From positions 24,613,899 to 24,677,898 of the forward strand of contig OZ316891.1 of assembly GCA_973895155.1 (NCBI GenBank): 64,000 nt of DNA, in the 5' to 3' direction. The notes under the pieces were generated by a model. It was not told where the DNA came from. It did no database searches and saw only the letters and a list, made by a program, of their open reading frames with translations. Each line of letters opens with the position of its first letter. Position 1 is the stretch's first letter. Below, one piece after another: positions 7,801 through 63,210 of the stretch. The translations under genes and the position numbers were made by a program. The stretch is from Marsupella aquatica (taxonomy: Eukaryota; Plantae; Marchantiophyta).

Positions 7801-8620
7801 TAGGATCAGGACCAGGAGACGGCCCTGACATTTAGATTAGTGGGATTTTGGATCCACGGGTGAGGGCAACACTTGTGCTCCTGCCTCGCTGTACATAGGT
7901 AGATTACAGTCAGGTAGATTACAGTAGGTAGATTAGGCTTACGCTGCAAGGAATCAGGCGGATCCACGACCAGGATAAGTACTTGGGCTACGGGGAGTTT
8001 AGGGCCTCTTCTTTAGCAAGTTTTTAGTTGCACCAGCAGGGCTGGGATCAAGTAGTAAGAGAAGCTCTTGGTTAGTTATACAGTGACTCTTGTGTATATT
8101 CATGTTTCCTCATACCTAAGAACTGAATAGAGTTGGCCTCATGGCTTAGTTCGCAGAGCTTGTGTATGAGATGTACTATTTGTATTGCAAGTGCATGGTA
8201 TAACTCAGTCAAAAGGAGTCATTTTGCTATTTGTGTGTTGCATTAACTTGTGTGAAGAGTGCCCACACCAACAAGTAGAAGGGAAGTAAGCAAGGGAGTG
8301 AGAGTTGGATGTGTCGAGCTGAGAGAGGTCTTAGTGGCTTAACCAAACCAATTGGGGATCATTCCGGCGGCAGAATCCAAATATACCTGACCAACAGGAG
8401 GGAAAGACAAGAGAAGGTCTAGATTAGGCCAACTGCATATCTCATGACCCGATGAAGAATCTATCCAGTATATGTGTGTAAAATGTTAATAGTAGTAGTA
8501 GGAAGTTAGTAGCATCCCATGTCGCTAAACCGCGGAAATGGCCTCGCCGAGCACAAAACCTGCGGGAATCGGCTTGTGCGGGGGGTTTCTTGGGTTTGGG
8601 GAGCCATGGGAAGCACCACA
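4835..8620 (+). mobile_element. Giant LTR family A, copy 3 (older, diverged, 5' part displaced); ORF pseudogenised
   Basis: Homologous to 59495-63206 with many substitutions, a frameshift near 5215 and stops at 5513, 5750 and 6860. Ends ...GGGAAGCACCACA at 8620, abutting transposase-like sequence. Confidence 0.88.
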
Positions 8621-9256
8621 ATATCTATGTGACATTTGCTCACGAAGATGTTGTGCTCGCTTTTCTTCAATTTCAGCACGTTCTTTTTTCCTTCTTTCTC
8701 GCATCAAACTGTCTTTGTATTCACAACAAAGAGTACACTTGGCAAATGCACCATCTTTATGAAAACTGAAGTTTGCAAATGAGTTGCTCCAGATCTTGTA
8801 GAGAGTATTCTCTGTGACAGGAGGAAGCCCTTCTTCCTTCATCTTTGTTCTCACATCTTCCAGAATCTCTAGCTTCTTGTAACACGCCGGAAGATGGTAC
8901 TCAATAGAGTCTGTCCCATGTGCCCCTCCTAAGGCATATGAGGCATGGGCTCTGCATTTCAAGTCAAAAAAACCTCCAACAGAGCTCGTGCATGCAAAGT
9001 ATTTGCCCTTGTTTTCATCAAGCCCGTATTGCCATGGAACCCAATTTTGCATCCCTCCACATATCTCCTTTTGTAATCATAATATTTGGTGTGGCTAAAA
9101 CCGTGGATAATTGCAATGCATGTCTGCATACGACCATACCCTTAAGAACATGGTGTCCCTTATCACAAACATCATCCTCTCTATAGTGAAAGAGGTTGAA
9201 AATGTGTAACGTTTTTGACTCGCTTGACATCCCATGAAATTCCATCCTAATATCTT

Positions 9257-11579
9257 TGTGACGCCGCCGGTACGGCGGTTAATGAGTGATTCAGTCTAAC
9301 TGCGCTCGGCACGCGCGTTAGGTGGGTCTTAGGCCGCTATTATTAGCATAACGACAGTATTTAGGTAATCATTAGGGGTAGGACATCATTAGGCAATAAG
9401 GGGGACTTCAGGTTCGGGCTGGCGGCGGGTCGCTATTCGCACACCCGGGTTACGAGCGTGGATGGGCCCCTCCCTCGGGTCCGTATAACGAACTTAAGGA
9501 AGCGGCCACTGACACACGCTGACTCAGACCGGCGGAGTGGCCGGTACACCACAAGCGTGAGCGGTTCAACCTATGGGCGTCGAGGAGACGTCGGGGGTCG
9601 ACAAGCCCTCAAAGTATAAAAGGGGAGCCAACCCTTTGTAGTGCACCAGTCCAGTGGACACGCCAGCTTCACCCACCCCACCTCCACAAATAGCTGTAAT
9701 CGTAACCGAGGAGGCGCCGGAGGGGTCGGTCGTCGCAACCGTTGATGCGACCCAACTAGCCGGGCTAAGTACAGAAGTTGGTACGGCAGAGGTCTTACCC
9801 GAACCCGGGTCTCCCAAGGACCCGCCGGTGGCAATTCCGGAGAACCGGACATCGCTGCAGGAGGACACTCCAGCCCCTTCCAACGTTATGTCCCCAGGGC
9901 TGGACGTCACTGCCCCGGCCCCTGCGCGTGTTGATGTCTGCCCGTGCCCAAATCCGGACAGGCACAACTTGGACCACCCGAAACTCTTCGTACAGGGTAC
10001 GTTTCTGAACAGGCTTCTGGGAGATTTCTCTCATCAAATTGCCCGGGATACCGGGGAGTTCATGGCCCGAAAGGTAGCCTGTTTCTTCAATCAGGAGTTG
10101 GTTGCCGCCGTAAAGGCAGGTCGGGCCCAGTCGGAGGCCCTTCAGAGGATAGAGCGGTACCAGGTGGAGTCCGTGTACCTAAAGAACGAAGTGGCGGCTC
10201 AAGAGGCTGAGCTTCTGCAACTACGACCCAAGGTTGCAGCCGCCGATGAGTTGTTAGCAAAGGCATACGCTCTTACCGCCCTAGCCGAACAGGCCAAAGC
10301 TGGGAACGAGGCCGAGATTACACTACTCCGGAACCAGATTGACAGTTTGAAGAAACAAGCTGTCACCTGGCAGAAAGACCTGGAGGAGGCCGAGGAGCGA
10401 GCCCAGCGGGACGCGACGGAGATAGCCACGCTGCAGGCCAAGATGGCATGGCTCCAAACCGAGGCCGAGAAGCAGGACCAGCTGGCGGGTAAACTGACGA
10501 GCGACGCCCAGCAGCTGGAGGAGGCATGTCAGGAGGCAGCAGAGGAGACGGACGCGGCGAGGCGAGAGAACGAATCTCTGCTGGACCAGGTCCAGCTCCT
10601 CAAAGCGGACAATGACAGGCTTCGAAGGCAGCGGGATGGCCGTTCCCATTCGGGCGGCTCTGGCAAGCATGCCAGGCATTAGCGGCGGAGTAGGAATAGA
10701 TTAGGATTAGGATTGGCTTAGTCAGGCTCTTGGGACAGGCACCTGCCTTAGGTACAGCAGCGCTGCCCTGCTGTCCAGCCTGCGTAAATTAGGATCTTCT
10801 AATAAGACACAGCCGTTTTCCGGCCTGACTGTCAGCTTAGTTAGGACCTTAGTCAGTGAATCTTCGGCGAGAGGACACCCCGTTCCTCGGCTCTTAGTAT
10901 TTAGTGCACCCCTCGGTAGAGGCAGGGGGGTTTTTAGTTTCAGAGTCGGACATCCGCGGGACATGCGGGGAGTCCCGACCTCTGGGAATGACAGAGTACC
11001 AAGGGGAGGGGGTAGGACTAAGCTCGCCGGGCGAGTGCGGAGCCGGGCTCCGTTGTAGTGTGCACCCTCGGCCTTGAACCTGTGCATTCCAGGGCTGTCG
11101 TGTCAACTAAGTGTACGCATATGTTCCCTTTGTAGTAAAATCCTTTCCCATCATTTTTCCTTCATGTAAATCGAGATTGTATGCATGTGTGCGCATATGT
11201 GTGTGGGTTTCTCGTATATGGGTGGCAGCGCCGGGCCAAACACACTACCCGAGACGTGCACAGGGTGCAGCCTGCGGGTAAGTGGTTGCGAGCATGGGTT
11301 GAGGACCTGTATCATCGAATCCGGATCGAAGGCGGACAGCACGAAGGCTTAGAAGCCCTTAAGCCGGGGTCGATCCTGCTATCGACTAAGGTACGTTCCG
11401 GCGGCGGAACACAAACCATACCTAGGAGGTGTCCGTATTTAGCAGTATGCGCACTTAGCGCTAGTTTACGAGAATAAGGTGCATTACGTGCTTCCCTTCC
11501 TGCCCGAACCCTCAGATTTACGAGGGATGTGCCCGTCTAAGCTGAAGTCTGAGTTAAGGCCGAAGCCTACGACGTGACA
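9257..11579 (+). mobile_element. Solo LTR of family B (2323 bp, internally deleted) with 5-bp TSD ATCTT
   Basis: TGTGACG...CGTGACA termini. ATCTT at 9252-9256 and 11580-11584. Homologous to 36162-40279 (-). Confidence 0.93.
9654..10682 (+). CDS. Coiled-coil C-terminal remnant of the family B LTR-encoded protein
   Basis: 342-aa open frame with Pro-rich then heptad-rich region. Homologous to frameshifted pieces at 37220-38251 (-). Confidence 0.6.
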   Translation: MDTPASPTPPPQIAVIVTEEAPEGSVVATVDATQLAGLSTEVGTAEVLPEPGSPKDPPVAIPENRTSLQEDTPAPSNVMSPGLDVTAPAPARVDVCPCPNPDRHNLDHPKLFVQGTFLNRLLGDFSHQIARDTGEFMARKVACFFNQELVAAVKAGRAQSEALQRIERYQVESVYLKNEVAAQEAELLQLRPKVAAADELLAKAYALTALAEQAKAGNEAEITLLRNQIDSLKKQAVTWQKDLEEAEERAQRDATEIATLQAKMAWLQTEAEKQDQLAGKLTSDAQQLEEACQEAAEETDAARRENESLLDQVQLLKADNDRLRRQRDGRSHSGGSGKHARH

Positions 11580-12894
11580 ATCTTCGATGTGTTCCCTTGG
11601 CATAATGAGACAACATTTTTGCTTGCAACAATTTTCTCTTTTCACGTCATCAATTGATGCCTCTGTTGTTTTTGAAATTGCCTTGGTTTCCAACAACCTC
11701 CTCTTCTTTTCATTCGGATCTACTTGATTCCTCTTGTTAAAATTGTACGGCCTTGAACGCAGTACTCCTCTATCACTTACATCTGCATTGAGTTCATCCC
11801 TATCCATTGAGTCCATCCTCTCAGAACCTTCCACCAAAATGTCTGACAAAATTTTTCCATTTGCAACTAGTTTTGTTGAATCAATCCGCCATCAAATCAA
11901 ACTCACGACTCCCTTGTGGATGTTGGGAAAGTATTGTGCTGCCACGACATCTTTCACAGCAATCCCAACATGGTCATCACCAAGAATTTCATCATCAACT
12001 ACTGCCGTCACTTGAGGGACAGTGATCGTTCCAGTGGCAACCATTTTGGTTTGATCCAAACCAGTGTAGAGTTCAACCAACTCTGACATCCAGTTTTCCC
12101 GATGAAAATAGTCACACTTAGTGTCCGTGGTGTTCGCCAAACAAGACTGTGAAACAAAATTTGCCTTGTCCTTTTGCTTCTTAGAGGAAAATTTGTTGCT
12201 CCCATCGATATCAACATTCCATACTTTAATGTGGACGTCAACCACATCCCATAGAACCCAGGAGCCCTTTGCCTCTTCAATTGTTGCAGCTCCACCATGT
12301 GCGTAAGGTAAAGTCTTACTACCATGAATCACATCTGTGATTTTTACACTAACCCGAGACTCACCGAGTAATATGTTATGACATCTCTCCATTGGATCGA
12401 TCTTGAAAACAACTCCAAAGGCCACACAATGGCCAGAGATAAACATTTCAACCTCATCGCCTGGCCTTAGGTTGGTCGAAGCATCCTCCTCTACATTTGC
12501 AACATTATGGATGTTGTTATCTTTTTGAGTCGAACAACTACCAATACTGATGCGTTTTTGAGTAATCTTATTTGTAGATCGATATGCACATGACATATCC
12601 CAAATGACACATGAGTCAATGGCATCATGAAGATTTTCCGCCCTAGGCATTGGAAAAGGGAGCTTCCTGGTCTCACCAAAGGCCTTCTCGATGACCCCAA
12701 TTTGATTCTCTCCCAGCACAATATTTTGAACACTCTCTCGTGGATCTGTCTTTTGAACTGTCCCATTTCCAACGTTGTAACCATCCATTGTCAAGGTCAC
12801 ATCATCGCCCCTAGAAAACCTTTGAGACATCCTTTTCCTATTATCCTCCACACTGAAAAAAATGGATTAAAACCAAACTCATGCAAATATCCTC

Positions 12895-13930
12895 CAATTC
12901 CGGATTTGGACTAGGACCATCCGAGTCTGGATTTGGACCGGGACCATCCAAGTCCGGATTTGGACTGCAATCCTTCGGGTCTGGATTTGGACTACGATCC
13001 TTCGATTCTAGATTTGGACTGGGACCATCCGAGTCCGGATTTGGAACGGGACCATCCAAGTCCGGATTTGGACTACAATCCTCCGAGTCTGGATTTGGAC
13101 TACGATCCTCCGATTCTAGATTTGGACTAGGACCATCCAAGTCCGGATTTGGACCGGGACCATCCAAGTCCGGATTTGGACTGCAATCCTCCGAGTCTGG
13201 ATTTGGACTACGATCCTTTGATTCTGGATTTGGACTAGGACCATCCGAGTCCAGATTTGGACTGGGACCATCCAAGTCTGGATTTGGACTGCAATCCTCT
13301 GAGTCCGGATTTGGACTACGATCCTCCGAGTCTGGATTTGGACCGGGACCATCCAAGTCCGGATTTGGATTGCAATCCTTTGAGTCTGGATTTGGACTAC
13401 GATCCTTCAATTTTGGATTTGGACTGGGACCATCCCAGTCCAAAGTTGGAATTGGACCATCCCAATCCAAACTAGGACTCGGACCATTCCAATCCAAACT
13501 AGGACTCGGGCCAACCCAATCCAAACTAGGACTCGGGCCATCCCAATCCAAACTAGGACTTGGGCCAACCCAATCCGAACTAGGACTTGGGCCATCTCAA
13601 TCCAAACTTGGATTGGGACCATCCAAGTCCAAACTTGGACTCGGACCATCCCAATCCAAACTTGGACTCGGACCATCCAAGTTCAAACTTGGACTCGGAT
13701 GATCCCAATCCAAACTTGGACTCGGACCATCCTAATCCAAAGTTGGACTCGGACCATCCCAATCCAAACTAGGACTTGGACCATCCAAGTTCAAACTTGG
13801 ACTCGGATGATCCCAATCCAAAGTTGGACTCGGATGATCCCAATGCAAAGTTGGACTCGGATGATCCTAATCCAAACTTGGACTAGGACCATCTGAATCC
13901 AAACTTGGACTAGGACCATCCTAGACCAAT
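12895..13930. repeat. Tandem array of ~38 x 27-bp palindromic units (TTTGGACTGGGA-CCA-TCCCAGTCCAAA type)
   Basis: 9-aa periodicity in all translated frames. Perfect inverted repeat with 3-nt spacer at 13418-13444. Confidence 0.92.
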
Positions 13931-14924
13931 CCATGATGTAATGGGAGATAAACTTCAAACATCTTAAGCTAAGAAAAATCCAAATTTATGAAGACTCCGT
14001 ATTTTACGGATCTCCCTATATGGTGTAGCCTAAAGTTTGCGTGGTCTTAAGGCAGACCCTAATGTCTGCATACAATTTCATGAAATAATGGAACCTTGTA
14101 TTTGAATGCATTAACCTTATACTCACCTTAGTATTAAGATCTGGTAGAAGATGAATATCACATCCAAGGGGTATACATTGTTGTTTGTAGATTGGTAAAA
14201 ACTTCCCAAAACCTTGAAATACAAGCTATATGCCACTAAATCTTGGGAGTAAAAAACAAACTGAACCCTAAACCACACATGTCTGTAAAAGATAAACTGA
14301 GAGGACTCCAAAAGTCAAGAAGCTGGCTAAGCTGACCCATTGAAGGTAAGTGGCTCAATACATAACACATTAAGAGAAACTCCGGATTACATGGAGCTTA
14401 GATTTGGGAAACTAGAACAAGAATGAGCTCCGAAATGGGCGTCTCCCAAATTATACCCTTCGCTTGAGTCGGCTCAACCGGAAATTGCATGAAGATAAGG
14501 GTTGAGTATGCGTTCACCCTAGCTTGCGGACACTCCTTATCTTCACGAGCCTAATTGCGCGGGGACTACCATGCAAGGCTGTTAGGTAGGCAGAACATCA
14601 AGAAAGGAGGTCCGTATGCAAGGTGAGGGCAACGGGCCGTACGCAGGAGCAGGCCGTATGCAGGAGAAGGAGGCAACCGGCCGTACGCAGGCTGGGGTGA
14701 GGCAGGAGGGGGTAAAGGGACGGAGAGGTCCAGCCAGGACCTCATTCTCATTCTCTCACTCCGAGACTCCTTGCTCTCTCGCTCTCCTCTCGCTCTCCGC
14801 TCTCTCTCTGCTCTCTGCTCTCTCTCTGCTCTTCGCTCTCTCTCCGCCTCCTCGCCTCCGCCTGCCTCCGCCTTCCGCCTCCACCTCCATTCTTTTTTTT
14901 GCCCTAGATCGGACGCTTGCTAAG

Positions 14925-17900
14925 ATGCCACATGTCATGCTGCCACGTGTTAGAAAGATGGAAGCAAATCGCGTCCTTGTGAAGTCCTACGTGGAAGAAA
15001 CAGAGGAGTTTGACCTCTCCTTTATGAGCGACAGTGTAGAACTGGTACTCAAAGACTCCAGACAATTTCAATCACGAATCCCTAGTAAGTATCCATTACC
15101 TATCCTCCCTAAGTCTTAGAGGACTGGGACCATCCGGGTCCAAAGTTGGACTCGGACCATCCCAATCCAAACTTGGACTCGGATAAGTTGGACTCGGACC
15201 ATCCCAATCCAAAGTTGGACTCGGATGATCCTAATCCATCCAGGAGATTGAATCCCGATTGTAGGAGCAAGTCTAAAACCATCTCAAGTTGGACTAGGAC
15301 CATCCTAATCCAACAAGAGTTATTCAAATGTTTTAAAGATTTTAAGTCTAACATGGATGATGTTTATGATGCAGGGAGCAATCTTGTTGGTTTCAAACCT
15401 GCGATTGCACCGACCCACTGCCTAGACGGATTCTTACTAGATGAGAGATCCCCACGCTTCCGATGGGGGCTTGAGTTCTCAAGAACCCCGCTTAATAATT
15501 AAGTGCCATCAAGCACGATTGAACCTGTTTTGACCTTAAAGTGCAGAGAAAATGATAGCCTGACTTTTGTTTGCGGACCTGTGGTCTCTGTTGGCATTGG
15601 AGGGAGAGGGATGAATTTGGTCATTCTGGAGATGCACGATAGGTCTTGTTGGGTTAAAGTTAACCTTCTGTCAAAGGCATACTCCTTTGAATTCAATGTT
15701 GAATGGCACGCAAGTGGGGAATTGAGCATTTTGTCAATGGGATTTTTCCCAAAGACCTATGACACAAAGAAGTTGGTCGCCGGGGTAACTGGTATGCTTC
15801 CAGTCAACATTATGTATGGGTTTCAATATTTGAAACTCAACATGATGAAGCACCAAGGCAATTTTTCTTTTGCAACTACGTGGATGTTAAGCAATTTACT
15901 TGAGAAAGCTGGATTGTTATCGTTGGAGTCGGAGGAGCCTGGTGTTTTAATTGATAAGGATGTTGCATTTGCTCCCAAGTTTGATTTAGTCAAAGCAAAG
16001 CAATGGATAGAATCTTTGTCCAAGACAAGAAAGCTTCCAGCGGTGAATACAAACCCTGTGCCCGAGCAAGTGCCAGAGAAAGCTCCAGAACCTACAACAG
16101 AGACCGCGGGAACTACAACAGCGACCTCTCAAAGAGCAGTGGGAAAACAAAAACAAAGCCAAAGGAAACCTCCGGTTGAGAAGAAACTTCCAGTTGAGAA
16201 GCCAGTTGAGAAGCCAATTGAGAAGCCGAGTACAAGAAGCCAAGTTGAGAAGCCAATTGAGAAGAAACGTCCGGTTGGGAAGCCGAGTGCAAGTGAAAAG
16301 AGGCCAAGACAGAAGAAGAAACAGAAAATTGACAGTGCCATCATGGATGACACTACAGAAAACCTAACAGTGCATTCACAAGATGTGGACGAGCAGTTGG
16401 ACGCTCCTGAGGAGAAGAAGGTCTTAGAAGGTAGTGAGGTACTACAACAAATGGAGCAATATTATACGTTTGGGATCAATTCGATATTTTCTATTCCCGT
16501 AGAGAGTATTTTCCCTACGTTGGCAAAACTCTGTTACAGAATGTTGAATGCAGACCATGTAAAGGATGTGGCCAATTCCATGATAAGAAATTCGGGGCAT
16601 GAACCACACATAGCAGACTTGATTCCTTACACTGCAAAACATAGAAACCTAATGTAGTATGACAACACGGAATCAGATAGGAGGGACTTTGTAGCAGCCG
16701 TGAAAAAGGGCGAGGTTCAATTCCTTGCCATTAGCGGTCAACATTCGGCCAGAGCAGCCGGATGGATTCAAGAATGGGCAAACAAGGATGCCAAGCTAAC
16801 AACATTGGAAAAAAAGCTGGAATTTTGAAAGTCAAGAATATTATCTCATCGAACACCATCATCAATATTAGTTGAGCATTCAATGCAATCTAATGCGATC
16901 AATAGCACGATGGTGTTTCAGTCATGCTTCAAAAATACAGTCGTTCATGCTAGGCGAGAATTTGTGGAATGTGGAAGACCTGGCCGGCCAAAACATGGGG
17001 ACAACAAAAAAGGCTCAAGACAATCAAAAATTTCAGGTATGAAGTGTTACCGCTTGATGGGTACAATACCGTAGATTCATGCACATTCAATAGAATATTT
17101 CCACTAATATCGCCTAGTTTTGCATTGGATTGGGATGGTCCCAGTCCAAATGGATTCATGCACATTCAATAGACTATTTCCACTGATATCGTCTAGTTTT
17201 GTGTTGGACTATGATGGTCCCAATCCAAATGGATTCATGCACATTCAGTAGAATATTTCCACTGATATCGCCTAGTTTTGCGTTGGACTGGGATGGTCCC
17301 AGTCCAAATGGATTCATACACATTCAATAGATTATTTTTCCATTGATATCGTCTAGTTTTGTTCTAGACTGGGATGGTCCCAGTCCAAACTAAATCATGC
17401 ACATTCAATTAAATATTTCCACTGATACTGTCTAAATCTGTGTTGGACTGGGATGGTCTCAGTCCGCACCTGAGTGCTTTCAAACAATTGAGTTATGGAG
17501 AACTAACAGACTTTCCTTTGCAATTGTAGGATTGGTTGGCTCTTGCAAGAATGACCATGGGAAGGAAAGATTGTCGAAATGTTTACTGGTAACTATTTGC
17601 GGACAATGCTCTTTTTGAGTTATGGAGTTTGGTATGCCAGTTGTGGTTGGATGGGAAACTTCCCGATGGAGCTGGGGTAGAAGGAAATGAGAAGTCTGAA
17701 AAAGCAATTACTGTTGCCATGTTTCGTTGTTTTGATGGTGAGTTGATCTCACAATGAGACATCACAAGAATACTGACGCGGGTGAAGTCAAGAAAGGTAT
17801 TGCTAAAGAAAGATGCCTCTAATAAGTCAGACATGCCATCTATAGAGGAGTTGGCCAAAGATGTGAAGATCGTGCGGAAACTGAAATCCCTTATTGAAGA

Positions 17901-19898
17901 CTACTATTGCACCAAGGATGCAGTGAATTTCCTGGAAAATACTAATTGGGGGAAAGTAGTTGAGGTTCTTCCTACGCTAGCAATTGATTTAGAGTGTTCA
18001 GCAGGTGTCAAAGAGCCGCTGGCGAGGTCTATCTTGCCAACCTTTTAAAGCCAAATCATACGCGGGAGAGCGCAATCTTGCCGACGGCATTGACATTCCG
18101 CCTAGATGATATATACTGCCAGAAATTTGGCGAAGGATCACGTTCTCGGACCCTACCATGGGTTGCATTTTTAGCGACAATGTCATGAAGACCATTGATC
18201 CAGAGTCATTGCAAGAAGCTCCTTTGACCTGCCCTCTTGCCATTGTTGATTTTAGCCGGCTTCCGCAAAAACAATGGACTGAAGCAGAGATTCTTGTTCT
18301 CTTTGAATATATTGTGGAGCTTCCACAAAATCCCACGATTGTTGTGACGATAACAGTTCATCCTGGACAACTTGCATTGAATGTCCATGGTGCCCTTCGT
18401 AAATTGGGACAAGAGAAAGCTTTGACCATTCACATTGAGTATGGGAGTTATTCTCGAGATGATCAACTGCACCCTCATGACTCATGTTGGGGTGGGGGGA
18501 TTGAAGAAGTTATCTTTGCAAGGATTTCTCGAGATGAAGACGTCAATTGGAATGAAGTTTTCAAGCCCAACTATCCAAAGCCAAAATTCTTGTATACTTC
18601 AAAGGATGTTGATTACGAAGTATGCAAGATTGACAAGGGAAAGGGGAAGGCTAAGGAATCAGATGAGGGGACACAAAACGACGACCTAAAAGTGGTTTTG
18701 GACCCGGAAGAGGCCGTCAAGATTATGAATCCCTCAATTTGAGATAGTTGGCAGTCGCGGAGGGTGGGTTAATCCTCATGCCAAACCCATGTGGATGATT
18801 TGAAGGATTATTGAATCCTTGTCAGAATCGGGAGATTTGGTTCTAGATTTTTTCTCCGGTGGCCAAGTCATGAAGACATCATTTTTTTGCGATAGGGAAT
18901 GCTTTGTTTATTGTGACTCTCACTCTGAGAGGCATTTTGTGGAAGCTTTTGCTTCCTACCTTTGCGAGAGAGTTCCCTCACTTAAAGCCCATTGTGAATC
19001 ACTTGCTGAAAATTCTCAACAATGGGCTACCATTGTTGCGGCTGTAGCTATTGCTGTTGAATCTGATGGTTCTGAGTCTGAAGATGTTGCTGACAAAGTG
19101 GCTAAAGGCGTAGAGGCATCAGAGGAGGCATATGTCAAGAATTTGGATGATCGTGTTGGTCAAGGTGAGCCTTACGATGTAGATGATGATATTGGACTTG
19201 CACCAAACCGTTCATCTGGTTTAGATGACATCCCTTTGGGGCCCAATGAAGTTCAAGTTGATGATAACTTGGACAAGGATGATCCCAATCCAACAACGCC
19301 GGGAGGACAAATGGAGCAACTGGACGGAGCAAGGGTTGATACGTTTGATCATCTTTCTTCAACCAATCTGATCAATGAAGGCGCAACGAGGCTTGGAGAT
19401 TCAAATGAAGTTGAAACTAAAGAATTGACTCTGGGGGAGACTGGCGGATTGCCTGACATTCCCATCAATCCAGGAGGAAATGCATCAACGGCTGCTGACA
19501 ACCAGGCAGGTGCTTCAACTTGTCTTGACACACTCTTTTCAGCTTTTGATGACAAATTGGTGTTTGTTCATTCACACTCGGGGAGTCCTATTGTCCTTCC
19601 GCTCTAAAAAAAGAAAGGAAATAGAGTTGGATCAACTAGATGGAGGTCATTGGAACGCGACGCACGATGTTACGTGTGGAAAAGTGGATCAAATTGAGGC
19701 CAAGAAATATCATTGGATGCTGCTCCTTCAATTCTCAATAAGGAGGAGTATAAGAGGGGAGAATTGGGGTTGATAACTCCTATTTGGACTTCACCTTATT
19801 GGGTAGAACAAAGTACTTCAGATGTCAATTTTAAAATCCAACAGGAACTTGGTGCTGACATGATTATTGATGAATACGGATCTCTTATTTCGGAATGA
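14925..19898 (+). pseudogene. Spliced, decayed gene encoding ParB-like domain plus beta-class N4C/N6A DNA methyltransferase-like domain (transposon 1 cargo)
   Basis: ParB-like YRMLNADHVKDVANSM...FLAISGQHSARAA (about 16530-16760). Motif-IV position CPLAIVDFSR (about 18230). Motif X/I NPHAKPMWMI*RIIESLSESGDLVLDFFSGG (18771-18863). GT-AG introns near 15085-15375 and 17037-17529. Several in-frame stops. Confidence 0.7.
17074..17470. repeat. Intronic tandem repeat, ~5 x 79 bp, each with the same palindrome (TTGGACTGGGA-TGG-TCCCAGTCCAA)
   Basis: Units start at 17074, 17153, 17232, 17311 and about 17393, inside a predicted intron. Confidence 0.88.
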
Positions 19899-20382
19899 AA
19901 TTCAACCTTTGACTTTCTATTTATTCACATCAATCTAAAATACTTCTCGGTCTCATAGAATGCGCTCACCAATTAAAGTCTCCATATACGTCTATAGATT
20001 GTGAGGCTTCTAAAAACGGTAAGTAGGTTAATTTTCTTTTTTGTCAGCCATTGTCTTGTATTTTTGGACTGAGACAATCCTAATCCAAAGTTCACTTTTG
20101 GTCTTTTCTCTCCCGGGGTCCTCACTTCTTTTCTTCCAACCCATCACGCGCGAATAAGTATAGGGTTTTTTTATTGGGTTTAGTGAAATACTTTTAAATT
20201 TTTGTTGAAAAACATTAGGGTTATTTTAATCCAATTTTCAGAATGATAAGAATCATAGGGTTTTTTAAAATCAAATATGGGAATATTCTTGGAATATTCC
20301 ATTAAGTTAGGGGTAAAACAATTCCTAAAAAAAACTTTATTGACTTAACTTTTAGGGTGTTTATTCCCCCAAAACTTCGAGC

Positions 20383-21135
20383 GTGATATGGGACACCCCT
20401 TGGATTGAGGCCCCCAAGTTTTCTCTGAGAATGGTGTTTGGTGCACTTGCAGAATCGAGACCTGGTCCCGTCAAGCGGAAGTTGTTGATTTTGGACCTTA
20501 ATAAAATACTTTGGGATTCTATTGAATTCCAAAGCAAGGGCACATCCAGGAATATTGTCACCTCAAGTGGAGTGCATTGGGATAGAAAAAATGATATTAG
20601 TCGCATGTATACAGAACGACCAGGGCTCCATGAGTTTCTAAAGTTGGTTTTTGACAAATTTGACGTTGCAAGTTGGACATGTGCTGGGATACCGCGAACA
20701 ATAAAAATGTTGAACATGATGTTCACTGATGAGGAGAGGTCAAAACTCCAGTTTGTATTCACACACGTGGAAGCTTTTGACACAGGCATTCAAAGGCGTG
20801 ACATTACAAACGGAAAGGCAAATGTGCTACTGAAGGATTTTCAGGTGGTATGGAATGCATTTGGAGATCTATATGATGAAACCAACACCCTCCTTGTGGA
20901 TGACTCCCCCTTTAAGGCATTTGCCAACCCAGACATGACCGGATTATTTCCAGTGCCCTACACGCATGCCAATCATGGAGATAATTTTCTTCTAGCAATT
21001 CTTTGGCCATGTCTTGAGAAATTATCACCTCGGGGGTTTCACTTCCACAAAAATGGCATATCACGTGCGACGAAGGATAGGGTCATTTTATTGGTTCTAA
21101 GGAAAGACTTAAGAATTTTTGTAGAAGAACAATAG
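20383..21135 (+). CDS. FCP1/NIF-family HAD phosphatase-like protein (probably transposon cargo; exon limits uncertain)
   Basis: KLLILDLNKIL (motif I variant), ERPGLHEFLKLVFDKFDVASWT, LLKDFQVVW, NTLLVDDSPFKAFANP. Confidence 0.75.
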   Translation: MIWDTPWIEAPKFSLRMVFGALAESRPGPVKRKLLILDLNKILWDSIEFQSKGTSRNIVTSSGVHWDRKNDISRMYTERPGLHEFLKLVFDKFDVASWTCAGIPRTIKMLNMMFTDEERSKLQFVFTHVEAFDTGIQRRDITNGKANVLLKDFQVVWNAFGDLYDETNTLLVDDSPFKAFANPDMTGLFPVPYTHANHGDNFLLAILWPCLEKLSPRGFHFHKNGISRATKDRVILLVLRKDLRIFVEEQ

Positions 21136-44446: not shown

Positions 44447-45078
44447 AGGGGTCGTGTACTTCATCAGTTATCAATGAGTTTCATCAGTGACTGATATCAG
44501 TCCAACACCGGAACTCAGCGAATTAGCTGAGATCAATTCTTCTGGGGCACAACCCAATCCACAACCCAATCGCAGTCCGCGCCATTGTCGGCGCCTCTTT
44601 GAGGTTGGATCGGGTACTTTACTTTGACCATTTCTTATGTCAACTGCCTCTCTGACATTAAAGGAGAATATAAAGTTTCAATCTTGGCGGCCTCTCTGAG
44701 ATTTCCTCGAAGTTCAGTTGAATCTCAGCGAGCCCTGCCGAGATTCAACTGAAATTTGAGGAAAAAAAACTTCTCACACAGGGTCTTCGATATATCATGG
44801 GGTGTCGCTACTAAATCTCAAATAGGATCCATACAACACATCGTACAACAGAGTCCATACAACACGTCCCTTTCAAAGACTCATCTCAAAGACCCTCACC
44901 GACTTATCCAAGAGAGCTCGACATGACATTGAAAAACAACACGGGGTCCAGCGTAGAAAGTACAGGACAAGAACATAACCTTTGGAGGAAATTTTTATTT
45001 TACTTTGTATACAACATGTTGCTCTGTTGTGAAATATTCACAAATTGAATTCACAAAGGCAATCCATCAATCCTCTAT

Positions 45079-45903
45079 CTACAAACTGATCATCTGGCAG
45101 ATTAGGTCTACAATAATCTTTTGTCGTATAAGCAGTACATGTTTAGGGTCAACCGCCAATACAGAGTCGCTAGAAAGACGCTCCATGTACATTATGACAT
45201 ATACTCCACAATTGTAACTATCGGGTTGGGCTGGAATAACGTTGCGGACGATGCGTTGCCATTGTAATGACGATAAGTGGGGACAACTGCGCAAGCGGGA
45301 CAGGTCATGGAGAAACCGACCAAAATTCACCAAATCGTCGCATTCCGATGCTTCGCCTCCAATGGGATCGAGCAAATGTAGTTGCTGCAAAGTAAAATCG
45401 ACCACAGCTAGTACCCAATGTTTTGGCCTGTGGATGGGGATTAGAATGAGGTCGAATGAAAAGACTTCAATGCCCTTCACAAATGCCAACGCTGCGTTGA
45501 AGCTGTATGCAAGATGCGTCAAGACATTGTAAAAATGTGTGGGCAAAAGCATGCATTTGGGTTTTGCAATGACCTCTGCTCTACGCTCCAATAGAGGAAT
45601 GTAAGCATTGATGATGTCACAAGTGAGCCATTTTTTTGCCCTCAAGCATTTGAAATCTTTTCTCCTCAATTTTAAGTCGCCGAGGCTGACTAGGACTTCA
45701 TCTTGGTCCCTGATGGAGTCCAATGCTTCTTTGACTATGGTCGCAAGTATGGCGGGTTGATGTTGTTGTGCAGGCACCCCCTGATTCGGTCGTTGGTGTA
45801 TAGGCACCCCCTGATTGACTCCTTGTTGGGCAGTCACTACCTCGTCGACTGGTTGTTGTGGCTCAGTTTGCTTCTGAGCTGCAATGAAGGTTAATTCACC
45901 CAA
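45079..45903 (-). CDS. ULP1-like (peptidase C48) SUMO protease domain
   Basis: WLTCDIINAY, LILIPIHRPKHWVLAVVD, LLDP and QPDSYNCGVY; His/Asp/Gln/Cys catalytic residues present. Confidence 0.88.
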   Translation of the reverse strand: MGELTFIAAQKQTEPQQPVDEVVTAQQGVNQGVPIHQRPNQGVPAQQHQPAILATIVKEALDSIRDQDEVLVSLGDLKLRRKDFKCLRAKKWLTCDIINAYIPLLERRAEVIAKPKCMLLPTHFYNVLTHLAYSFNAALAFVKGIEVFSFDLILIPIHRPKHWVLAVVDFTLQQLHLLDPIGGEASECDDLVNFGRFLHDLSRLRSCPHLSSLQWQRIVRNVIPAQPDSYNCGVYVIMYMERLSSDSVLAVDPKHVLLIRQKIIVDLICQMISL

Positions 45904-46439
45904 AAATTACTCTTCGGAATTGGAGCTTGACAAACTTATGCTTGCATGGTGAGTTTGGGGACTATCACTATCACTTCCTACCGAGCTACTCTCATCCGAT
46001 TCAGCCTCTTCTGCCCTATCATCGACAAATTTGAGAGTCTTCCTTGTTCTCTCTTTCACAAAATGAGCAACTCTTTCTTCATGATATGTATCAGCGTAGC
46101 ACGGTAGGCTTGACTTATCCGGAGAGAATAATGTTGAAGCTTCCTCCCAAGCGAGCTTCACAAGTCGTCTGTCCTGTGTGTCCCATTCCTCGGTTGCCGA
46201 CTTGGTGGTCCTGTCGGGAACTGCTACTAAGTTATACTTAAATCAAATCATGTATTGCGCCGAAATAGACGGATCACAAGAACAAATTTGAGGCAAGTGA
46301 GCCCATGTGGACACCCCAGATAATCCATTGAGTTGCCTTTCGAGATAGATCTCAGAGAGGCTAGCCAAGATGTATTTTTGTCCCTCCAGACGCATCTAAG
46401 GCCCTACGTGGACTTGCCAGTAGAAGTTGACGTGGCCAG

Positions 46440-46810
46440 GCCACCTGGGATTCATCTGGGCGAGGCCCGCCGACATGCATCTCAGAGAGGCCTGCTGAGA
46501 TGGACTTGCATGGAAATCTGAATATGCTCGGGCCAGATGCGATTCCTCTCGGCGAGGCCCGCCAACATGCATCTCGGAGAGGCCAGCCGAGATGGACTTG
46601 CCTGGAAATCTGAATATGCCCGGGCCAGATGCGATTCCTCTCGGCGAGGCCCGTCGACATGCATCTCGGAGAGGCCAGCCGAGATGGACTTGCCTGGAAA
46701 TCTGAATATGCCCGGGCCAGATGCGATTCCTCTCGGTGAGGCCCGCCGACATGCATCTCGGAGAGGTCAGCCAAGATGGATTTGCCCAGATGGAGAGCCA
46801 TCTCGGATAG
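46440..46810. repeat. Tandem repeat, ~4 x 92 bp, two CTCGG(A/C)GAG...CCGA palindromes per unit
   Basis: CATGCATCTC at 46474, 46566, 46658 and 46750. Confidence 0.9.
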
Positions 46811-46841
46811 TCCGCTGAAATACTATGGGACAATATTAAAA

Positions 46842-49800
46842 TCATTGAAGGGAAACGGTAGTAAACTCACATGAAGGCTTTTTCTTCTTGCGCTTTTCTG
46901 GATTGGATTTTTGACGATCCACTGCCTCCTCTTGCTCCGTTAGAGGCACTCCAATGAACTCTGTCATCGTGTGTTCCGCATAAGATTTGAAGTACGGATA
47001 GGATTCGGTCCCAACGACCATCCGCCCACAATTCTCACCAGCCTTAAAGATAGCCCCAAAGTGTGCATTGAACATGACAACAGTTCCCCCTGGCTTAGTT
47101 GTATATTCTATTATACATTGGAGTGTAGCTAGAGACAAGGTGCCACCAAAATCATCAATGGTCTCATTCTGACCCGTTGTATAGTTAGTTAGCCCGTTCC
47201 TCAACTTCATATCAAGCTCGACACTGATTGGCTTCACGTCATCCTTTGGGCATACCTCGGCAGATGATTTAAATCCCCAAAGGTCCAGCTTGAGATATTC
47301 ACTCTGGACGTACAGAACAAAGTCAGTGATGAGTCTTTTTGAGTACAAGTCACCGAAAGAACATAAGACAAGAATGGAGTTAAATCTATAAGACTTACCC
47401 GCTTTTGAGTTGTGAAGTTGAAGGTGGGTGTGGCGTTCCAGATGAAAAAGGTGTCTTTCAGCACCCAATTGGTCTCTTCGTAATTGAGACTGTCACAAAG
47501 TACTGTGGAGTGGGCAATCGAAGCACTGTGCACTATGCCAAACAATCCCTCATCATCGAGGAAAACTCGCGCAAAATCCTCAACCCGACTGAGGTCGTCT
47601 GGCCGGAACAAATTCCACAATGGGATGTTCCCATCCACGTGCATGCGGGTGTCTGATCCCATTTGAATCAGAATCAGATTTGCACCAGACCTTGCAGGCT
47701 TCCCGTTCTTTAGCCAGCCTTCTGCAGCCAAACCACCCCGCCTAAGCTTTCTGCACCAGTCTCTAAAACGGAGTACCACAGCCGATTCTTTACTGTCATT
47801 GGCAGCGTCAAAGTAAGTTTTGAAAAGATACGGAGACCATTTAAAATAACAATGCCTGGGCGGGGAAGAAAAGTTATCGGCGCTTGAACGCCAAACTCCA
47901 ACCACCTCTGTGCCATCCGACTCTGGTTTGCCTTCAACGTCCTCTTCGTAATTTGGGCCATCCGTTGGGGCCTCATGTTGGATTGTCGTGGGCGGAACCT
48001 CTATTGGGCTGGGCGGGGGTTATGGTATGGTGCTAGGCGGGGGTTGCTCTATGGGGCTGGGCGGAATGTCTTCAAGCTCAGTGTCACGTGCTTTTGCACG
48101 GCGAGGTTTGGGCCTCGTTGTTTTGGTCTTTTTTGCAGCCTTTGTCTTTGGCCTTGAGGATAATGGCATCCGTTTTGGCGCCGGAGTATCAGACTCACGC
48201 CCCTCTTGTTCGTCTTCTCCTTCGTCCTCTACCCGTTTGTCTTCTCCTTTGTCCTCTACCCGTTCATCTTCTCCTTCGTTATCTACCCGTACGTCGTCTG
48301 AATGATCCCCTCCTTGGGTTGCGTTCTCTCCCTGGGATGCGTCATGCTCTTGTTGCTGCTCGCTTTGTTGGTCTAGAGGCTGGTCTACCATTGGCTCTGT
48401 CGAAGGCTACACGCTTTGTTGCTCCACTTGCTGGTTGCCTTGTTGTAGTGTAGCCGGCTCTATCGTTGGTTCTGCAGTTGGTTCTATAGCCGACTCTATT
48501 GTTGGCTGTGGAGCCTTCTCTATAATTGGCTTTGAAGCCACTTCTACAGCCTTGCTTTTTACAGAACCTGGTTCCTCCGGTATCTCCTTCATACCTGGAT
48601 AGATTGCAAAGCAATGGGGTTATTGATCCTAAGCTTCTCTGCGAGCCTCGCCGACATGACATCCAAACACTTGACATTATACTTCATCTGCAAAGGTCCG
48701 GACGACATTTGGCTGTTCTTCTCAACGAGCCTCGCCGAGATGAGATCCAAGGGTTCGAACGAGATGCGACTGAAACTTGTTTGTTCTTAGCGAGCCTCGC
48801 CAAGATGAGATGCAGTCTATCTCAACAACCCCAAAATTGGTTCAGTACTATGTTAGCAAACCCAGCCAAGATGTAGTTCCAAATGAAACCACTATGCAGT
48901 GCGAAAGGAATCGAGTAATACCTGATGTTTTTCTTGGACTGGTTAGCGAGTCAGACTTACTGATGTCGCTCAATGGTTCCTTCTCAACCTTCCGTTCACC
49001 TTCTTTTCTGGCCTTCTTCCTGTCATAGGCAGGGTCAGTTGGGATAAGGGTCTCCACCTCTGTTGCCTCCGTTACTGAGTCTGACAGTTGTCGCAACTTT
49101 GTTATATCGTAGTAATTACTAGGTTCCTGTGCTTCTTTGAGCAGGTCTGCACTATCCTTCTCGGCAACCTCAAGAAAATTGTTCCAATTGTCATACTCCA
49201 TGTACCATGGGCAGTTCCTCCGTTCCCAATCCGAGAATACTCTGCCATGAGGCATGCGACCATCACATGGATACATGCTAAGGCTACCTGTAGCCTCCAT
49301 CCAAGATCTAATCGCCAATGGTAGTTGTTTCAACATCGTTGCATTCATGTTCTCCTGATGTATGAGAAATCTTGTCACGCACCGCTTTGTTCGCTTAATC
49401 CACGCTTCCCGAAACGCCAATTTGGTATTCCCTTCATTCCAAATGGCACCGCCTACTTTTAAGGATTTCTCTTGCACATAAGATCGGTAAAGCTTTCTAT
49501 AAAGCTTAGCAAAATTCCTCTCGCGTTCCGCTAAAATTGCCAGGCTGGTAGGCCTTCTCAGCAAAATTGGTCAACAAGATACAACCAACGTAGTCGATGT
49601 AACACCACATTGACCACATTGCTAGCCATGATCTAACTGCTGAATCACTATTGCTACGTGGATGGTGATACCTACTCCTATCTTCCTCCATTCCAAAATG
49701 AGCCTTCAAGAGTTTTAATCTGCACTCTGCAGTTAACCAAGCCCCAGAAAACAAGCAGATCCTGTCCAATCCAACCTGCACATTCATGACACCCTGCTTG

Positions 49801-50944
49801 GCCTCCTTTGCCAGCTTGTGATAGAGCTGTCGACATGCCGGGATGAATTCCAAACCATTGGCTGAATTCACGCAGGCCGCGAGCTTGGGGAACTTAGCGT
49901 CCCAGCTCTTGCACGCAGCAGTAATCATTGCCTCAGTCTCATGCTCAAGTCTCTTGGCATTCCACGGGTGCCCACGACCTGCGTCTTGTGCCATTTCCTT
50001 TGAAATATTGATTCGCCCCGCTTCAATGTTTGACCAGCTCATGATGTACACAGCTGCCTCTTTTGTCATGTTCTTGGAGTACCAAGTCTTCCCGTGGCCA
50101 CGATTTTGAGCCTTGAGGAAACCATCCAGCGTCTCCTTGGACATAAGCAAACTGTACTCCTCCAATGGAGTGTTTAACAGCTTCGCCACCCGATCGGCGT
50201 CATTGAACCATGACGTCCTCATGACAGTCGCGCTTATCCCGGACACGGCAAAGAATGTTCTTAGGTCTAACATTCAAACAGGGCAATCTTTGACAGATTG
50301 CCAATAGGGTATTCACACAAGGGAAACAATATTGTATACCTGTTGTTGCAAAATGTGAGTTACTTACGAGTTCAGAGCGTGCATTGCTTGCTCAACCTTC
50401 TTGAATCCGTCCTTTCCAGCGTTCAAAAGAGAGAATCTGACACACGGATGGTACTACGGTTGATCTAGAAACTCCTCCGCAACTGTAGACCAAGCTGTGT
50501 ACCTATGGTTTCCGTCAAAAACCCAAAACATCTTGTGCTTGAGCATTTTGAAGTCCTCTGACGCATCGCACTCTTGCTCAAACTGCTCATTGATTTCAGT
50601 CCACAGCAAGTCCCAATAGGGCTTGAACTCTGCCACTGTCCTCGTCTCCCCTGCTTCATTGAACTCAGTGATGTGGAACTCGCTGAGCTTACAACATAGC
50701 CGCTCTCTCTGAATCCTTTTTTTAGTTTGACCACTGACTCATCATGAAGATTCTTGACGGCCTCCATTGGCATGAGCCGGCATAAGGGGATCCGGGGAGG
50801 ATCTTTTTCAAACTTCATCTCATACTTGGAGACGATTGACTCCCAAGCTCCCTTCTCTACAATATTTGCTAATTCCGCTGCTCCTATTGGCTCGAACGAT
50901 ATTTGCTTTGGCTCAAACTTCCTCCTTGAGTCCACTGACTCCAC
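46842..50944 (-). pseudogene. Spliced, decayed gene encoding ParB-like domain plus degenerate beta-class DNA methyltransferase-like domain (transposon 2 cargo)
   Basis: ParB-like RIPLCRLMPMEAVKNLHDESVVKLKKGFRESGY...FWVFDGNHRYTAW (50454-50800). C-terminal ANLILIQMG, ARVFLDDEG and LQCIIEYTTKPGGTVVMFNAHFGAIFKAGENCGRMVVGTE. Confidence 0.65.
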
Positions 50945-51984
50945 AAGGGGACCACCTTGTGAGCGTGTTAGTCAAGATGTCACTGGCGAAGGGGACAAAG
51001 ACCATTGTTTCTTACTCCGCTGAGAAGTTCCGCTATCAACAGGTCCAGCGACAGAACCAGCCGAGTCTTTTCTCTTCACCATTGTGATCTAAGATTACAT
51101 GAGAAAACATTCAAGAATTACTTCACAATAACCATACATCTCGGCGAGCCCCGCCGAGCAAAATTTTTGACATGTCGAGCTTGCAACATACATTCAAATC
51201 GTGTAGACAGTCATGCAGTGAACAAAATTTCCAACCTCGGAGATGGGTGAAGCGCCGCGCTTGAAACTACAACCCGCTGAGAGTGATTCGACCACCGCCG
51301 ATTGAGACCTTCAAATCAGCCTTTGTAGCACAAAGCTTGAAACTTTGAGAGTCAACCGCTGCCGAGCTCAAACCAAACTGAGACCTTCAAATCACCTTTG
51401 CCAACCAGCACAGAGCTTGAAACTACGAGACTCGACAACCGCCAAGGTGAAGCCTTCAAAACACCTTCGCAAACCAGGGCACACGGCCACACTTGCCGAG
51501 AATAAGTGGAAGAGAGGAAAGCCAATGTGATTGGAAGACTGGGACAAAGAGCGGAGGGGACCTAGGAAGAGCGAGGATGCGTGAGGAATAACGGGGAGTG
51601 AATGAGACGGGGAGTGAATGATGAAGAGTGAGGAAGCACAGGGATAAGTGAGAACAACGTTGAAAGCCCTAACAAAGCGTGAAGAGCAAGAGTGACGAGG
51701 AAGAGTAAGGAAGAAGGACCCTCGTACCGCACATACCGCACCGGTGACAAGGAAGAGTAAGGAAGGACCCTCGTACCGCACATACCGCACCGCACGGAAG
51801 TACGCCATGGATACAAGAGATCCCCGGTACCGCACCGCACACAAGTACATGGATACGGGAGATCCGAACTATACTAGAGAACGTACATGTTGTTAATTAA
51901 CGGGCCAAACAAGAAAGTACGCGACCAAACAAGAAAGTACGTAGGTTCTAGGGTTTACGGCCCAGTACGGGGTATGAGATTTAG

Positions 51985-63206: not shown

Positions 63207-63210
63207 TTTT

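What the first reader, a model, noticed from the sequence alone, without database searches (positions are those of the whole stretch)
12895..20090. Transposon 1 is studded with a 27-bp palindrome confined to non-coding parts (parS-like?)
Seen: TTTGGACTGGGA-CCA-TCCCAGTCCAAA (perfect at 13418-13444) forms ~38 tandem units in a predicted intron upstream of the transposase exon. It recurs in the ParB-MTase introns (15120-15310; once per 79-bp unit at 17074-17470) and at about 20062. The same motif sits in repeat units of different length, which suggests selection on the motif itself. Known: ParB dimers load at palindromic parS sites; Arabidopsis VANDAL elements amplify VANC-binding motifs in tandem repeats for anti-silencing. 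Inference: cognate binding sites for an element-encoded protein.
Basis: partly seen in the sequence, partly recalled or inferred. Interest (0 to 1): 0.8.

Follow-up and report, generated by a model that had tools for sequence, protein, structure and literature searches.

The report
Liverwort transposon's private ParB docking sites
A broken jumping gene, likely from a liverwort, carries 50 copies of its own short DNA palindrome, nearly all outside predicted coding DNA, on which a bacterial-style DNA-binding protein encoded by the element likely docks to recognise, and probably shield, its own family; the same idea has been proposed, untested, for seaweed transposons.

Summary
There are 38 tandem 27-bp units (12905-13930) plus 12 dispersed copies, none elsewhere in 64 kb. 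Only 2 of 50 cores are perfect palindromes, and one copy (19271) lies in an ORF. The conserved unit is a 9-3-9 core, GGAYTNGGA-nnn-TCCNARTCC; similarity falls to background a few bases outside it. The arms show no compensatory pairing, and the array is not coding. A second, unrelated element in the window carries its own 9-3-9 palindrome (37 copies). The accessory gene has a ParB fold (model of a Riccia homologue, Z 9.9), but the CTP-binding arginine is serine in 52 of 56 rows and the methylase-like domain lacks motif IV. Best reading (0.55): family-specific docking sites for this likely non-catalytic protein, VANC-like in logic. The transposase as binder is the main rival (0.2). Binding is untested, and close copies showed no motif-over-flank conservation. 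ParB cargo with inverted-repeat arrays is in print for red-algal Plavaka elements, ParB-methylase cargo for Ectocarpus Sola1-1; my searches found no land-plant report. This scan has noted the same design many times, in this genome and others.

The parts
12905..13930 (.). 38 tandem 27-bp units, each with one 9-3-9 palindromic core; left sub-array of 19 units, perfect unit at 13418-13444, right sub-array of 18 units
12853..14126 (-). Predicted 5' (likely UTR) intron of the transposase-like gene; holds the array
   Evidence: donor and acceptor signals; no RNA or homology support
11580..12852 (-). Transposase-like gene, N-terminal part (broken); superfamily not established
   Evidence: only a sub-threshold Pfam Transposase_23 hit, E 0.036-0.063; other copies join 11580 to 9251
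8396..9251 (-). Transposase-like gene, continuation with Cys/His clusters; cut off at about 8395 by an LTR-type repeat, and no catalytic DDE region seen in the window
   Evidence: no Pfam hit
9252..11579 (.). 2.3-kb nested insertion inside the transposase-like gene, absent from other copies
   Evidence: joint 9251 to 11580 in 4 of 4 runs; inverted copy at 36162-40279
14925..15084 (+). Accessory (ParB-methylase-like) gene, predicted exon 1, head to head with the transposase-like gene
   Evidence: ATG and donor signal; in-frame splice to exon 2
15085..15374 (+). Predicted intron 1 with 5 motif copies (15121, 15148, 15190, 15217, 15291)
15375..17036 (+). Exon 2: conserved N-terminal domain, low-complexity linker, ParB/Srx-fold domain (about 16421-17036, ISGQHS motif); 3 in-frame stops
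17037..17529 (+). Intron 2 with five 79-bp units, one motif each (17127, 17206, 17285, 17366, 17445); spacer reads in the opposite orientation to most units of the main array
17530..18045 (+). Exon 3, helical domain after ParB-N; candidate DNA-recognition domain
   Evidence: 45% to Calypogeia P0014; the region aligns with KorB and pNOB8 ParB in the longer model; no match when folded alone
18050..19103 (+). Amino-methyltransferase-like domain in beta order; motif I-like DFFSGG present, no [DNS]PP[YFW]; broken by stops and frame changes
19271..19291 (.). Single motif copy inside the acidic C-terminal ORF (the exception to 'non-coding')
   Evidence: other copies continue with a different motif-like sequence here (loose end at 19273)
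20066..20086 (.). Single motif copy in non-coding DNA upstream of a NIF phosphatase-like ORF
20356..21132 (+). NIF/HAD phosphatase-like ORF; linked to the element in other copies
   Evidence: Pfam NIF E 1e-13; joints 20102 to 20424 and 21020 to 21324
44722..56712 (.). Second element with its own 9-3-9 palindrome (TCTCRGMGA-nnn-TCKCYGAGA), 37 copies, 32 non-coding; internal control

Best explanation
The palindrome is a family-specific 9-3-9 motif repeated 50 times inside one broken, multi-copy DNA transposon, and it is likely the docking site of the element's own ParB-fold accessory protein, which is predicted to bind as a non-catalytic dimer and would keep the family recognisable and likely active. 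Steps. SHOWN: the motif is restricted to the element within the window; it is kept across unrelated flanks; it is concentrated next to the divergent promoter region and in introns; it is amplified by tandem duplication (27- and 79-bp units). PREDICTED from structure models of a homologue: ParB N-domain followed by a helical domain in the place of the ParB DNA-binding domain, then an amino-methylase-like fold. INFERRED: a dimer reads the two half-sites (GGAYTNGGA); site density gives family specificity; because the CTP arginine and methylase motif IV are both missing, the protein acts by occupancy or recruitment rather than as a CTP clamp or a methyl writer. LEAST SUPPORTED: the outcome is anti-silencing or activation of the shared promoter, by analogy with VANC.
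For: 50 of 50 copies lie in 12905-20087, none elsewhere in 64 kb. Similarity across 6 unrelated contexts is 0.84 in the arms and 0.28 at 5-25 bases out. Contigs of diverged subfamilies begin to match only at 17119 and 17125, right at the first intron-2 motif (17127), with unrelated sequence before. A third coded organism keeps the motif units in intron 2 (run X5). Arm pairs are complementary no more often than independent variation gives, as expected for half-site readout in duplex DNA. The AlphaFold2 model of Riccia homologue P0065 matches ParB/Noc best: Foldseek E 2.4e-4; VIA Z 9.9, rmsd 2.1, 93 aligned to Myxococcus ParB; Z 7.5, rmsd 5.0, 189 aligned to KorB across N-domain and next domain. 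A second element with a different transposase type (by eye) has its own palindrome of the same 9-3-9 geometry and the same inner GA-nnn-TC, in 22 unrelated contexts, 18 non-coding (p=4e-5); neither motif occurs in the other element. The layout matches VANC sites (introns, intergenic, tandem-amplified; PMC5735166 passages) and F sopC (one inverted repeat per tandem unit; PMC3177203 passages).
Against: No binding data. The helical exon folded alone gave no HTH or ParB match (it lacks the helix encoded before the intron). Among close family copies, variants are not depleted in the motif (8 of 37 against 9.9 expected, p=0.31; 40 of 58 rows were shown). The spacer is also conserved (0.78), which fits copying from one source. 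High arm identity is partly built in, as copies were picked by similarity. One copy here and 5 of 37 in element 2 are in coding DNA. Element 2's ParB-like region is not significantly matched by the element-1 profile (hhalign probability 0.7%, inside the range of 20 shuffles), so its ParB label rests on a GNHR motif seen by eye. CpG depletion in the element (o/e 0.42-0.77) is like that of its neighbours, so no protection from methylation is visible in this copy. Transposases and TnpA also bind clustered family motifs.
Confidence: 0.55

Rival explanations
1. The sites are bound by the transposase (or a splice product of its gene), as TnpA binds clustered motifs in Spm elements; the ParB gene is a bystander.
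For: 38 of 50 copies lie in the predicted 5' intron of the transposase-like gene. A 2026 preprint shows TnpA binding dense family-specific motif clusters and activating its own family (10.64898/2026.08.24.746577, passages); its abstract says the same for AtMu1 transposase.
Against: TnpA binds at the termini; here the sites are internal and fill both introns of the accessory gene. Two elements with unlike transposases share the 9-3-9 geometry and inner GA-nnn-TC, and what they appear to share is the accessory gene. The element's true ends are not in view, so the terminal test is incomplete.
Confidence: 0.2
2. The accessory protein binds the sites and is an active amino-methylase that writes 6mA or 4mC on its own element.
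For: A motif I-like DFFSGG is shared with two Riccia homologues. Sub-threshold N6_N4_Mtase hits occur in three proteins (E 0.048, 0.0039, 0.023), and 9 of 10 structure neighbours of P0062 are N6_N4_Mtase clusters, all under the tool's bar. The A at core position 3 is present in 50 of 50 copies. The Ectocarpus paper proposes self-modification.
Against: No [DNS]PP[YFW], strict or relaxed, in any frame of 17530-19607 or in the three Riccia homologues checked; beta-class enzymes use DPPY or SPPY there (PMC10406627 passages). This copy is broken and those gene models may be incomplete.
Confidence: 0.1
3. A neutral palindromic minisatellite seed that was spread inside the element by slippage, template switching and gene conversion.
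For: Spacer conservation, reversed orientation in intron 2, few independent contexts (6), and no motif-over-flank conservation among close copies.
Against: Neutral copying should carry variable flanks; identity drops to background within about 4 bases in both elements (6 and 22 contexts). Two elements each have their own motif and not the other's. The metagenome scan gave only 4 single unrelated matches.
Confidence: 0.08
4. The motif is selected as a hairpin or cruciform, or as an RNA stem in the introns.
For: The perfect unit and one intron-2 copy fold at -12.3 and -11.8 kcal/mol, z about -5.8.
Against: Only 2 of 50 cores are perfect; 3 of the 6 copies folded are no better than shuffles (z -1.3 to +0.5); no pair shows clear compensation, e.g. 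positions 6/16 pair in 0.16 against 0.27 expected.
Confidence: 0.03
5. The sites are for a host transcription factor that the element exploits.
For: The densest cluster is beside the divergent promoter region (12905-15311).
Against: A 21-bp bipartite site private to each family, and absent from the host genes in the window, is unusual for a host factor. No whole genome was held, so genome-wide occurrence was not tested.
Confidence: 0.04

Closest known systems
Plavaka PAG3 with adjacent inverted-repeat arrays, red alga Bostrychia moritziana (bioRxiv 10.1101/2025.02.11.637652; passages seen; supplements not seen)
   Same: A giant DNA transposon with a ParB-homologous accessory gene and tandem arrays of inverted repeats; the authors suggest the protein binds and modifies its own element, untested in the passages seen.
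   Different: PAG3 pairs ParB with a 2OG oxygenase, and the adenine methylase is on a separate gene (PAG2). Arrays are described as adjacent to the gene. Here ParB is fused to a methylase-like fold, the motif fills introns and unrelated contexts, and the host is likely a liverwort.
Sola1-1_Ec32 accessory gene, Ectocarpus (PMC12477816; passages and supplement rows seen)
   Same: A ParB-like plus N4C/N6A methyltransferase gene on the strand opposite the transposase; proposed to bind and modify its own element.
   Different: No palindromes are mentioned in the passages seen. The enzyme is predicted active there; motif IV is absent here. Brown alga. The transposase superfamily here is not established.
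VANDAL/VANC anti-silencing, Arabidopsis (PMC5735166; passages seen)
   Same: Family-specific motifs in introns, intergenic and terminal non-coding DNA, amplified by tandem repeats, bound by an element-encoded accessory protein.
   Different: VANC motifs are 8-9 bp and arrayed in one orientation; this is a 21-bp bipartite palindrome. The protein here is ParB-fold. Binding and demethylation are shown for VANC, not here.
Bacterial ParB/parS, SopB/sopC, Noc, KorB (PMC3177203 and PMC12704722, passages seen)
   Same: ParB fold. One inverted repeat per tandem unit as in sopC (16 bp in 43-bp units). The centre of this motif, TGGGACCATCCCA, resembles the sopC site TGGGACCACGGTCCCA given (resemblance only).
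   Different: The GxxR arginine needed for NTP binding is serine; the site is 21 bp with a 3-bp spacer; no ParA seen; no segregation role is evident.

Membership tests
ParB-CTPase / parS system | N-terminal ParB/Srx fold | tested here: met
   Model of homologue P0065, pLDDT mostly above 90 over residues 101-250; Z 9.9, rmsd 2.1, 93 aligned to ParB 7bnk; Foldseek top hits Noc/ParB. Tested on a Riccia homologue aligned with the window's protein, not on the window's own chain.
ParB-CTPase / parS system | Box II GxxR arginine for CTP/NTP binding (R to A abolishes binding; PMC12704722) | tested here: not met
   The motif reads GQHS; serine at the arginine position in 52 of 56 rows, arginine in none.
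ParB-CTPase / parS system | Central HTH DNA-binding domain | tested here: inconclusive
   The longer model aligns through this region to KorB (189 aligned, rmsd 5.0) and pNOB8 ParB (209 aligned, rmsd 5.5); the exon folded alone gave no match.
ParB-CTPase / parS system | Palindromic cognate site near the gene | tested here: met
   50 copies of a 9-3-9 inverted repeat in and beside the gene; geometry differs from 16-bp parS.
ParB-CTPase / parS system | Specific binding of the protein to the site | not testable with these tools
   Needs EMSA, DAP-seq or ChIP.
ParB-CTPase / parS system | Partner ParA ATPase | tested here: inconclusive
   None among the window ORFs scanned against Pfam; the element's left end is not in the window.
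Beta-class N4C/N6A DNA methyltransferase | SAM-binding motif I, C-terminal to motif IV | tested here: inconclusive
   DFFSGG at about 18840, shared with two Riccia homologues; Pfam hits below the cut-off.
Beta-class N4C/N6A DNA methyltransferase | Catalytic motif IV (D/N/S)PP(Y/F/W) | tested here: not met
   Absent in all three frames of 17530-19607 and in P0062, P0065, P0079.
VANC-type anti-silencing system | Family-specific motif at high density in non-coding DNA, amplified by tandem repeats | tested here: met
   49 of 50 copies non-coding; 27- and 79-bp units; none outside the element in 64 kb. Genome-wide specificity not tested.
VANC-type anti-silencing system | Homology to VANC proteins | not tested
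   No VANC sequence was compared; the fold found is ParB.
VANC-type anti-silencing system | Protein-induced loss of DNA methylation and activation of cognate copies | not testable with these tools
   No methylome; CpG o/e is like that of neighbouring repeats.
Sola-type ParB-methylase transposon (Sola1-1_Ec32) | ParB-methylase gene on the strand opposite the transposase | tested here: met
   Head-to-head layout.
Sola-type ParB-methylase transposon (Sola1-1_Ec32) | Sola DDD transposase, terminal inverted repeats, 4-bp target duplication | tested here: inconclusive
   The gene is cut at about 8395; no catalytic region or left end in the window; no Pfam hit above cut-off.

The most novel reading that the evidence does not exclude
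Bryophyte DNA transposons of unrelated superfamilies have domesticated a bacterial ParB-methylase, disarmed both active sites, and turned it into a reprogrammable self-recognition factor: each family writes its own parS-like 9-3-9 code into its introns and promoter, protein and code co-evolve, and the complex counters host silencing - a convergent, ParB-based VANC system.
Probability: 0.3. Interest if true: 0.8.

Novelty: new variant of a known kind. Interest (0 to 1): 0.55.

Why it matters
Algal genome papers proposed that ParB-type cargo proteins bind their own transposons, but gave no tested site. This window gives two defined protein-motif pairs with the same geometry and different sequence, so a reciprocal binding test is straightforward. 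If it holds, a bacterial centromere-binding module serves as a transposon identity reader in land plants, independently of VANC and TnpA, and offers orthogonal DNA-binding pairs usable in liverwort models. The missing CTP arginine and motif IV would mean the module was kept for recognition, not chemistry.

Tried and rejected
Coding repeat: the left sub-array has two stop-free frames, but two is the commonest outcome in 500 simulations and variant alleles fall 6/5/5 across codon positions; the right sub-array has stops in all six frames. Rejected. Hairpin selection: no compensation. Disfavoured. Whole-genome scan: no genome held. Related loci: none confirmed in metagenome or viral contigs. Motif scan of metagenomes: 4 single matches with no similarity to the window or the protein; treated as chance. 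RNA: no RNA holder listed. Homologue searches with the transposase piece and the helical exon among longer proteins found nothing (weak evidence). Sequence searches of solved structures were blank. Pfam, PHROGs and NCBIfam gave no ParB hit for this family. The helical exon folded alone gave no clear fold match. Linking element 2's ParB-like region to element 1's family by profile failed. Element 2's transposase had no Pfam hit. Motif-versus-flank conservation in close copies: no signal. Literature searches for a land-plant report returned none relevant; the library lacks most subscription papers, Iyer et al. 2011 was not read, and the Bostrychia supplements (Fig. 13, Table 6) were not seen and may describe their repeats. 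Iyer 2016 (PMC4738411, passages) and a 2026 preprint on retrotransposon DAMs (passages) describe other methylase fusions, not this one.
Full report
Observation. The perfect 27-mer is at 13418-13444, with 14 matches at up to 3 mismatches against 0.00 expected. Laid in register, 38 units run from 12905 to 13930: 19 left units, the perfect unit, 18 right units. A symmetrised matrix from these units finds 12 more copies (five in 15121-15311, five in 17127-17465, one at 19271, one at 20066), all above the highest score of 30 shuffled windows, and nothing else in 64 kb. The conserved part is a 9-3-9 core, GGAYTNGGA-nnn-TCCNARTCC, usually with TT/AA outside. Only 2 of 50 cores are perfect palindromes. 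49 of 50 are outside predicted coding DNA; 19271 lies in the C-terminal ORF. As independent contexts the bias is modest: 5 of 6, p=0.039; 4 of 5 clusters, p=0.084.

Setting. A transposase-like gene on the minus strand (12852 down to about 8396) faces an accessory gene on the plus strand (from 14925). The first is split by a 2.3-kb insert that other copies lack (joint 9251 to 11580 in 4 of 4 runs) and is cut off by an LTR-type repeat; no catalytic region is in view and its superfamily is not established. Contigs of four runs (two studies, two coded organisms) cover all 30 bins of 8300-22000 with many variant contigs, so this is a multi-copy family (summed depth is not a copy number). The copy is dead: seven internal stops and several frame changes in the accessory gene. 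Named homologues are from Calypogeia fissa and Riccia sorocarpa, and a microbial-type terpene synthase gene lies nearby, so the host is likely a liverwort (inference). Introns: signals for all three; intron 1 splices in frame; intron 2 is backed by a Calypogeia gene model that matches from the first residue of exon 3 (45% over 155 aa) and by 28 of 48 homologous ORFs that run out shortly after the same point (rough pattern count). The 5' intron holding the main array rests on signals alone.

Is the motif itself selected? Across six unrelated contexts, pairwise identity is 0.84 in the arms, 0.78 in the spacer, 0.64 in the three flanking bases and 0.28 beyond; the arm value is partly built in, the sharp fall is not. 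In read data, two contigs of other subfamilies carry unrelated sequence up to 17119 and 17125 and match from the motif on, and a third coded organism keeps the units in intron 2. Against this, variants among close copies are not depleted in the motif: 8 of 37 against 9.9 expected, p=0.31, from 40 of 58 rows shown, with one contig giving many of the non-motif rows. Arm pairs are complementary about as often as independent variation gives, and 3 of 6 copies folded are no better than shuffles, which argues against hairpin selection. The array is not coding. A metagenome scan gave four unrelated single matches; the genome-wide test could not be run.

Internal control. A second element (about 44650-57470; Mutator-like transposase by eye, Ulp1 protease, a GNHR-bearing ParB-like region and a methylase-like tail) carries 37 copies of another 9-3-9 palindrome, TCTCRGMGA-nnn-TCKCYGAGA, in 92-, 107- and 158-bp units and as single copies. 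In 22 unrelated contexts arm identity is 0.73 and flank identity 0.27; 18 of 22 are non-coding (p=4e-5, on my by-eye exon map). Neither motif occurs in the other element. Both share the inner GA-nnn-TC. This points to the gene type the two elements appear to share, but the element-1 profile does not significantly detect element 2's ParB-like region, so that link is weak.

The protein. The ParB-like region has 75 matches at E up to 0.001 among 1.84 billion representatives (at least one, an ankyrin protein, is spurious). An AlphaFold2 model of Riccia homologue P0065 on a 56-row alignment matches Noc and ParB best (Foldseek E 2.4e-4; PadC Z 8.0 in the wide search; ParB Z 9.9, rmsd 2.1, 93 aligned; KorB Z 7.5, rmsd 5.0, 189 aligned across the next domain). 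The helical exon alone gave no match, so an HTH is suggested, not shown. The P motif reads GQHS: serine replaces the arginine in 52 of 56 rows, and that arginine is needed for NTP binding (PMC12704722, passages). The C-terminal domain has a motif I-like DFFSGG and weak N6_N4_Mtase signals but no [DNS]PP[YFW] here or in three Riccia homologues (compare PMC10406627, passages).

Mechanism. Most likely (0.55) a dimer of this protein reads the two half-sites; tandem amplification builds dense site clusters at the shared promoter region and in introns; and, lacking both active sites, it works by occupancy or recruitment to keep its family transcribable. Motif distribution is shown, fold is predicted, binding is inferred, and anti-silencing is by analogy only; CpG depletion in this copy is like that of its neighbours. 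Rivals: transposase or TnpA-like binding (0.2), active self-methylation (0.1), neutral spread (0.08), host factor (0.04), hairpin (0.03).

Prior art. Petroll et al. report tandem inverted-repeat arrays beside a ParB-domain accessory gene in red-algal Plavaka elements and propose self-binding (passages). Ectocarpus Sola1-1_Ec32 carries a ParB-methylase gene opposite its transposase (passages and supplement rows). VANC proteins bind tandem-amplified motifs in introns and intergenic DNA (passages). F sopC has one inverted repeat per 43-bp unit (passages). Searches found no land-plant report; bioRxiv supplements were not seen. It works like ParB/parS and VANC but is not filed as a ParB-CTPase or an active methylase, since one defining motif of each is missing. 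This scan has recorded the same design before: 33 of 43 notes in this genome fit the look-up, and other genomes have it too. Those are unchecked AI notes, read after my own tests, and are not counted as support.

Verdict. Real, element-specific and probably selected. A new land-plant, likely disarmed variant of a proposed but untested kind. Interest 0.55.

Noticed in passing
window 44722-56712: Second DNA transposon with its own 9-3-9 palindrome (37 copies), a ParB-like/methylase-like gene, a Ulp1 protease ORF (45082-45906) and a Mutator-like transposase by eye; its ParB-like motif keeps the arginine (GNHR).
   Followed up: partly
window 44700-44760: Near element 2's likely end, a motif copy sits at the centre of a longer inverted repeat (arms of about 25 bases).
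   Followed up: no
window 12905-13930: The left and right sub-arrays have mirror-image arm variants (TCCGAGTCC on the right arm in the left half, GGACTCGGA on the left arm in the right half) while most spacers keep one orientation; how this arose is unexplained.
   Followed up: partly
window 20112-21330: High-copy small inserts (about 20103-20419 and 21020-21324) flank a NIF/HAD phosphatase-like ORF; other copies join across them, so the phosphatase may be cargo of element 1.
   Followed up: partly
window 15375-16000: Unnamed conserved N-terminal domain ahead of the ParB fold, shared with five homologues; no Pfam hit.
   Followed up: no
window 30692-31795 (-): Intronless microbial-type terpene synthase-like ORF (Pfam TRI5, E 1e-14).
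   Followed up: no
window 23791-26277 (-): Spliced cytochrome P450-like host gene (Pfam p450).
   Followed up: no
window 1-8395 and 58547-63207: Three related copies of a long repeat with a coiled-coil ORF and an antisense piece at 3548-4834; LTR-retrotransposon-like; two copies are 98-100% alike.
   Followed up: no
window 9252-11579 and 36162-40279: Nested insertion in the transposase-like gene with an inverted, 80-90% alike copy 25-30 kb away.
   Followed up: partly
window 41901-44205 (-): Copia-type pol fragment with much stronger CpG depletion (o/e 0.25) than its neighbours.
   Followed up: no
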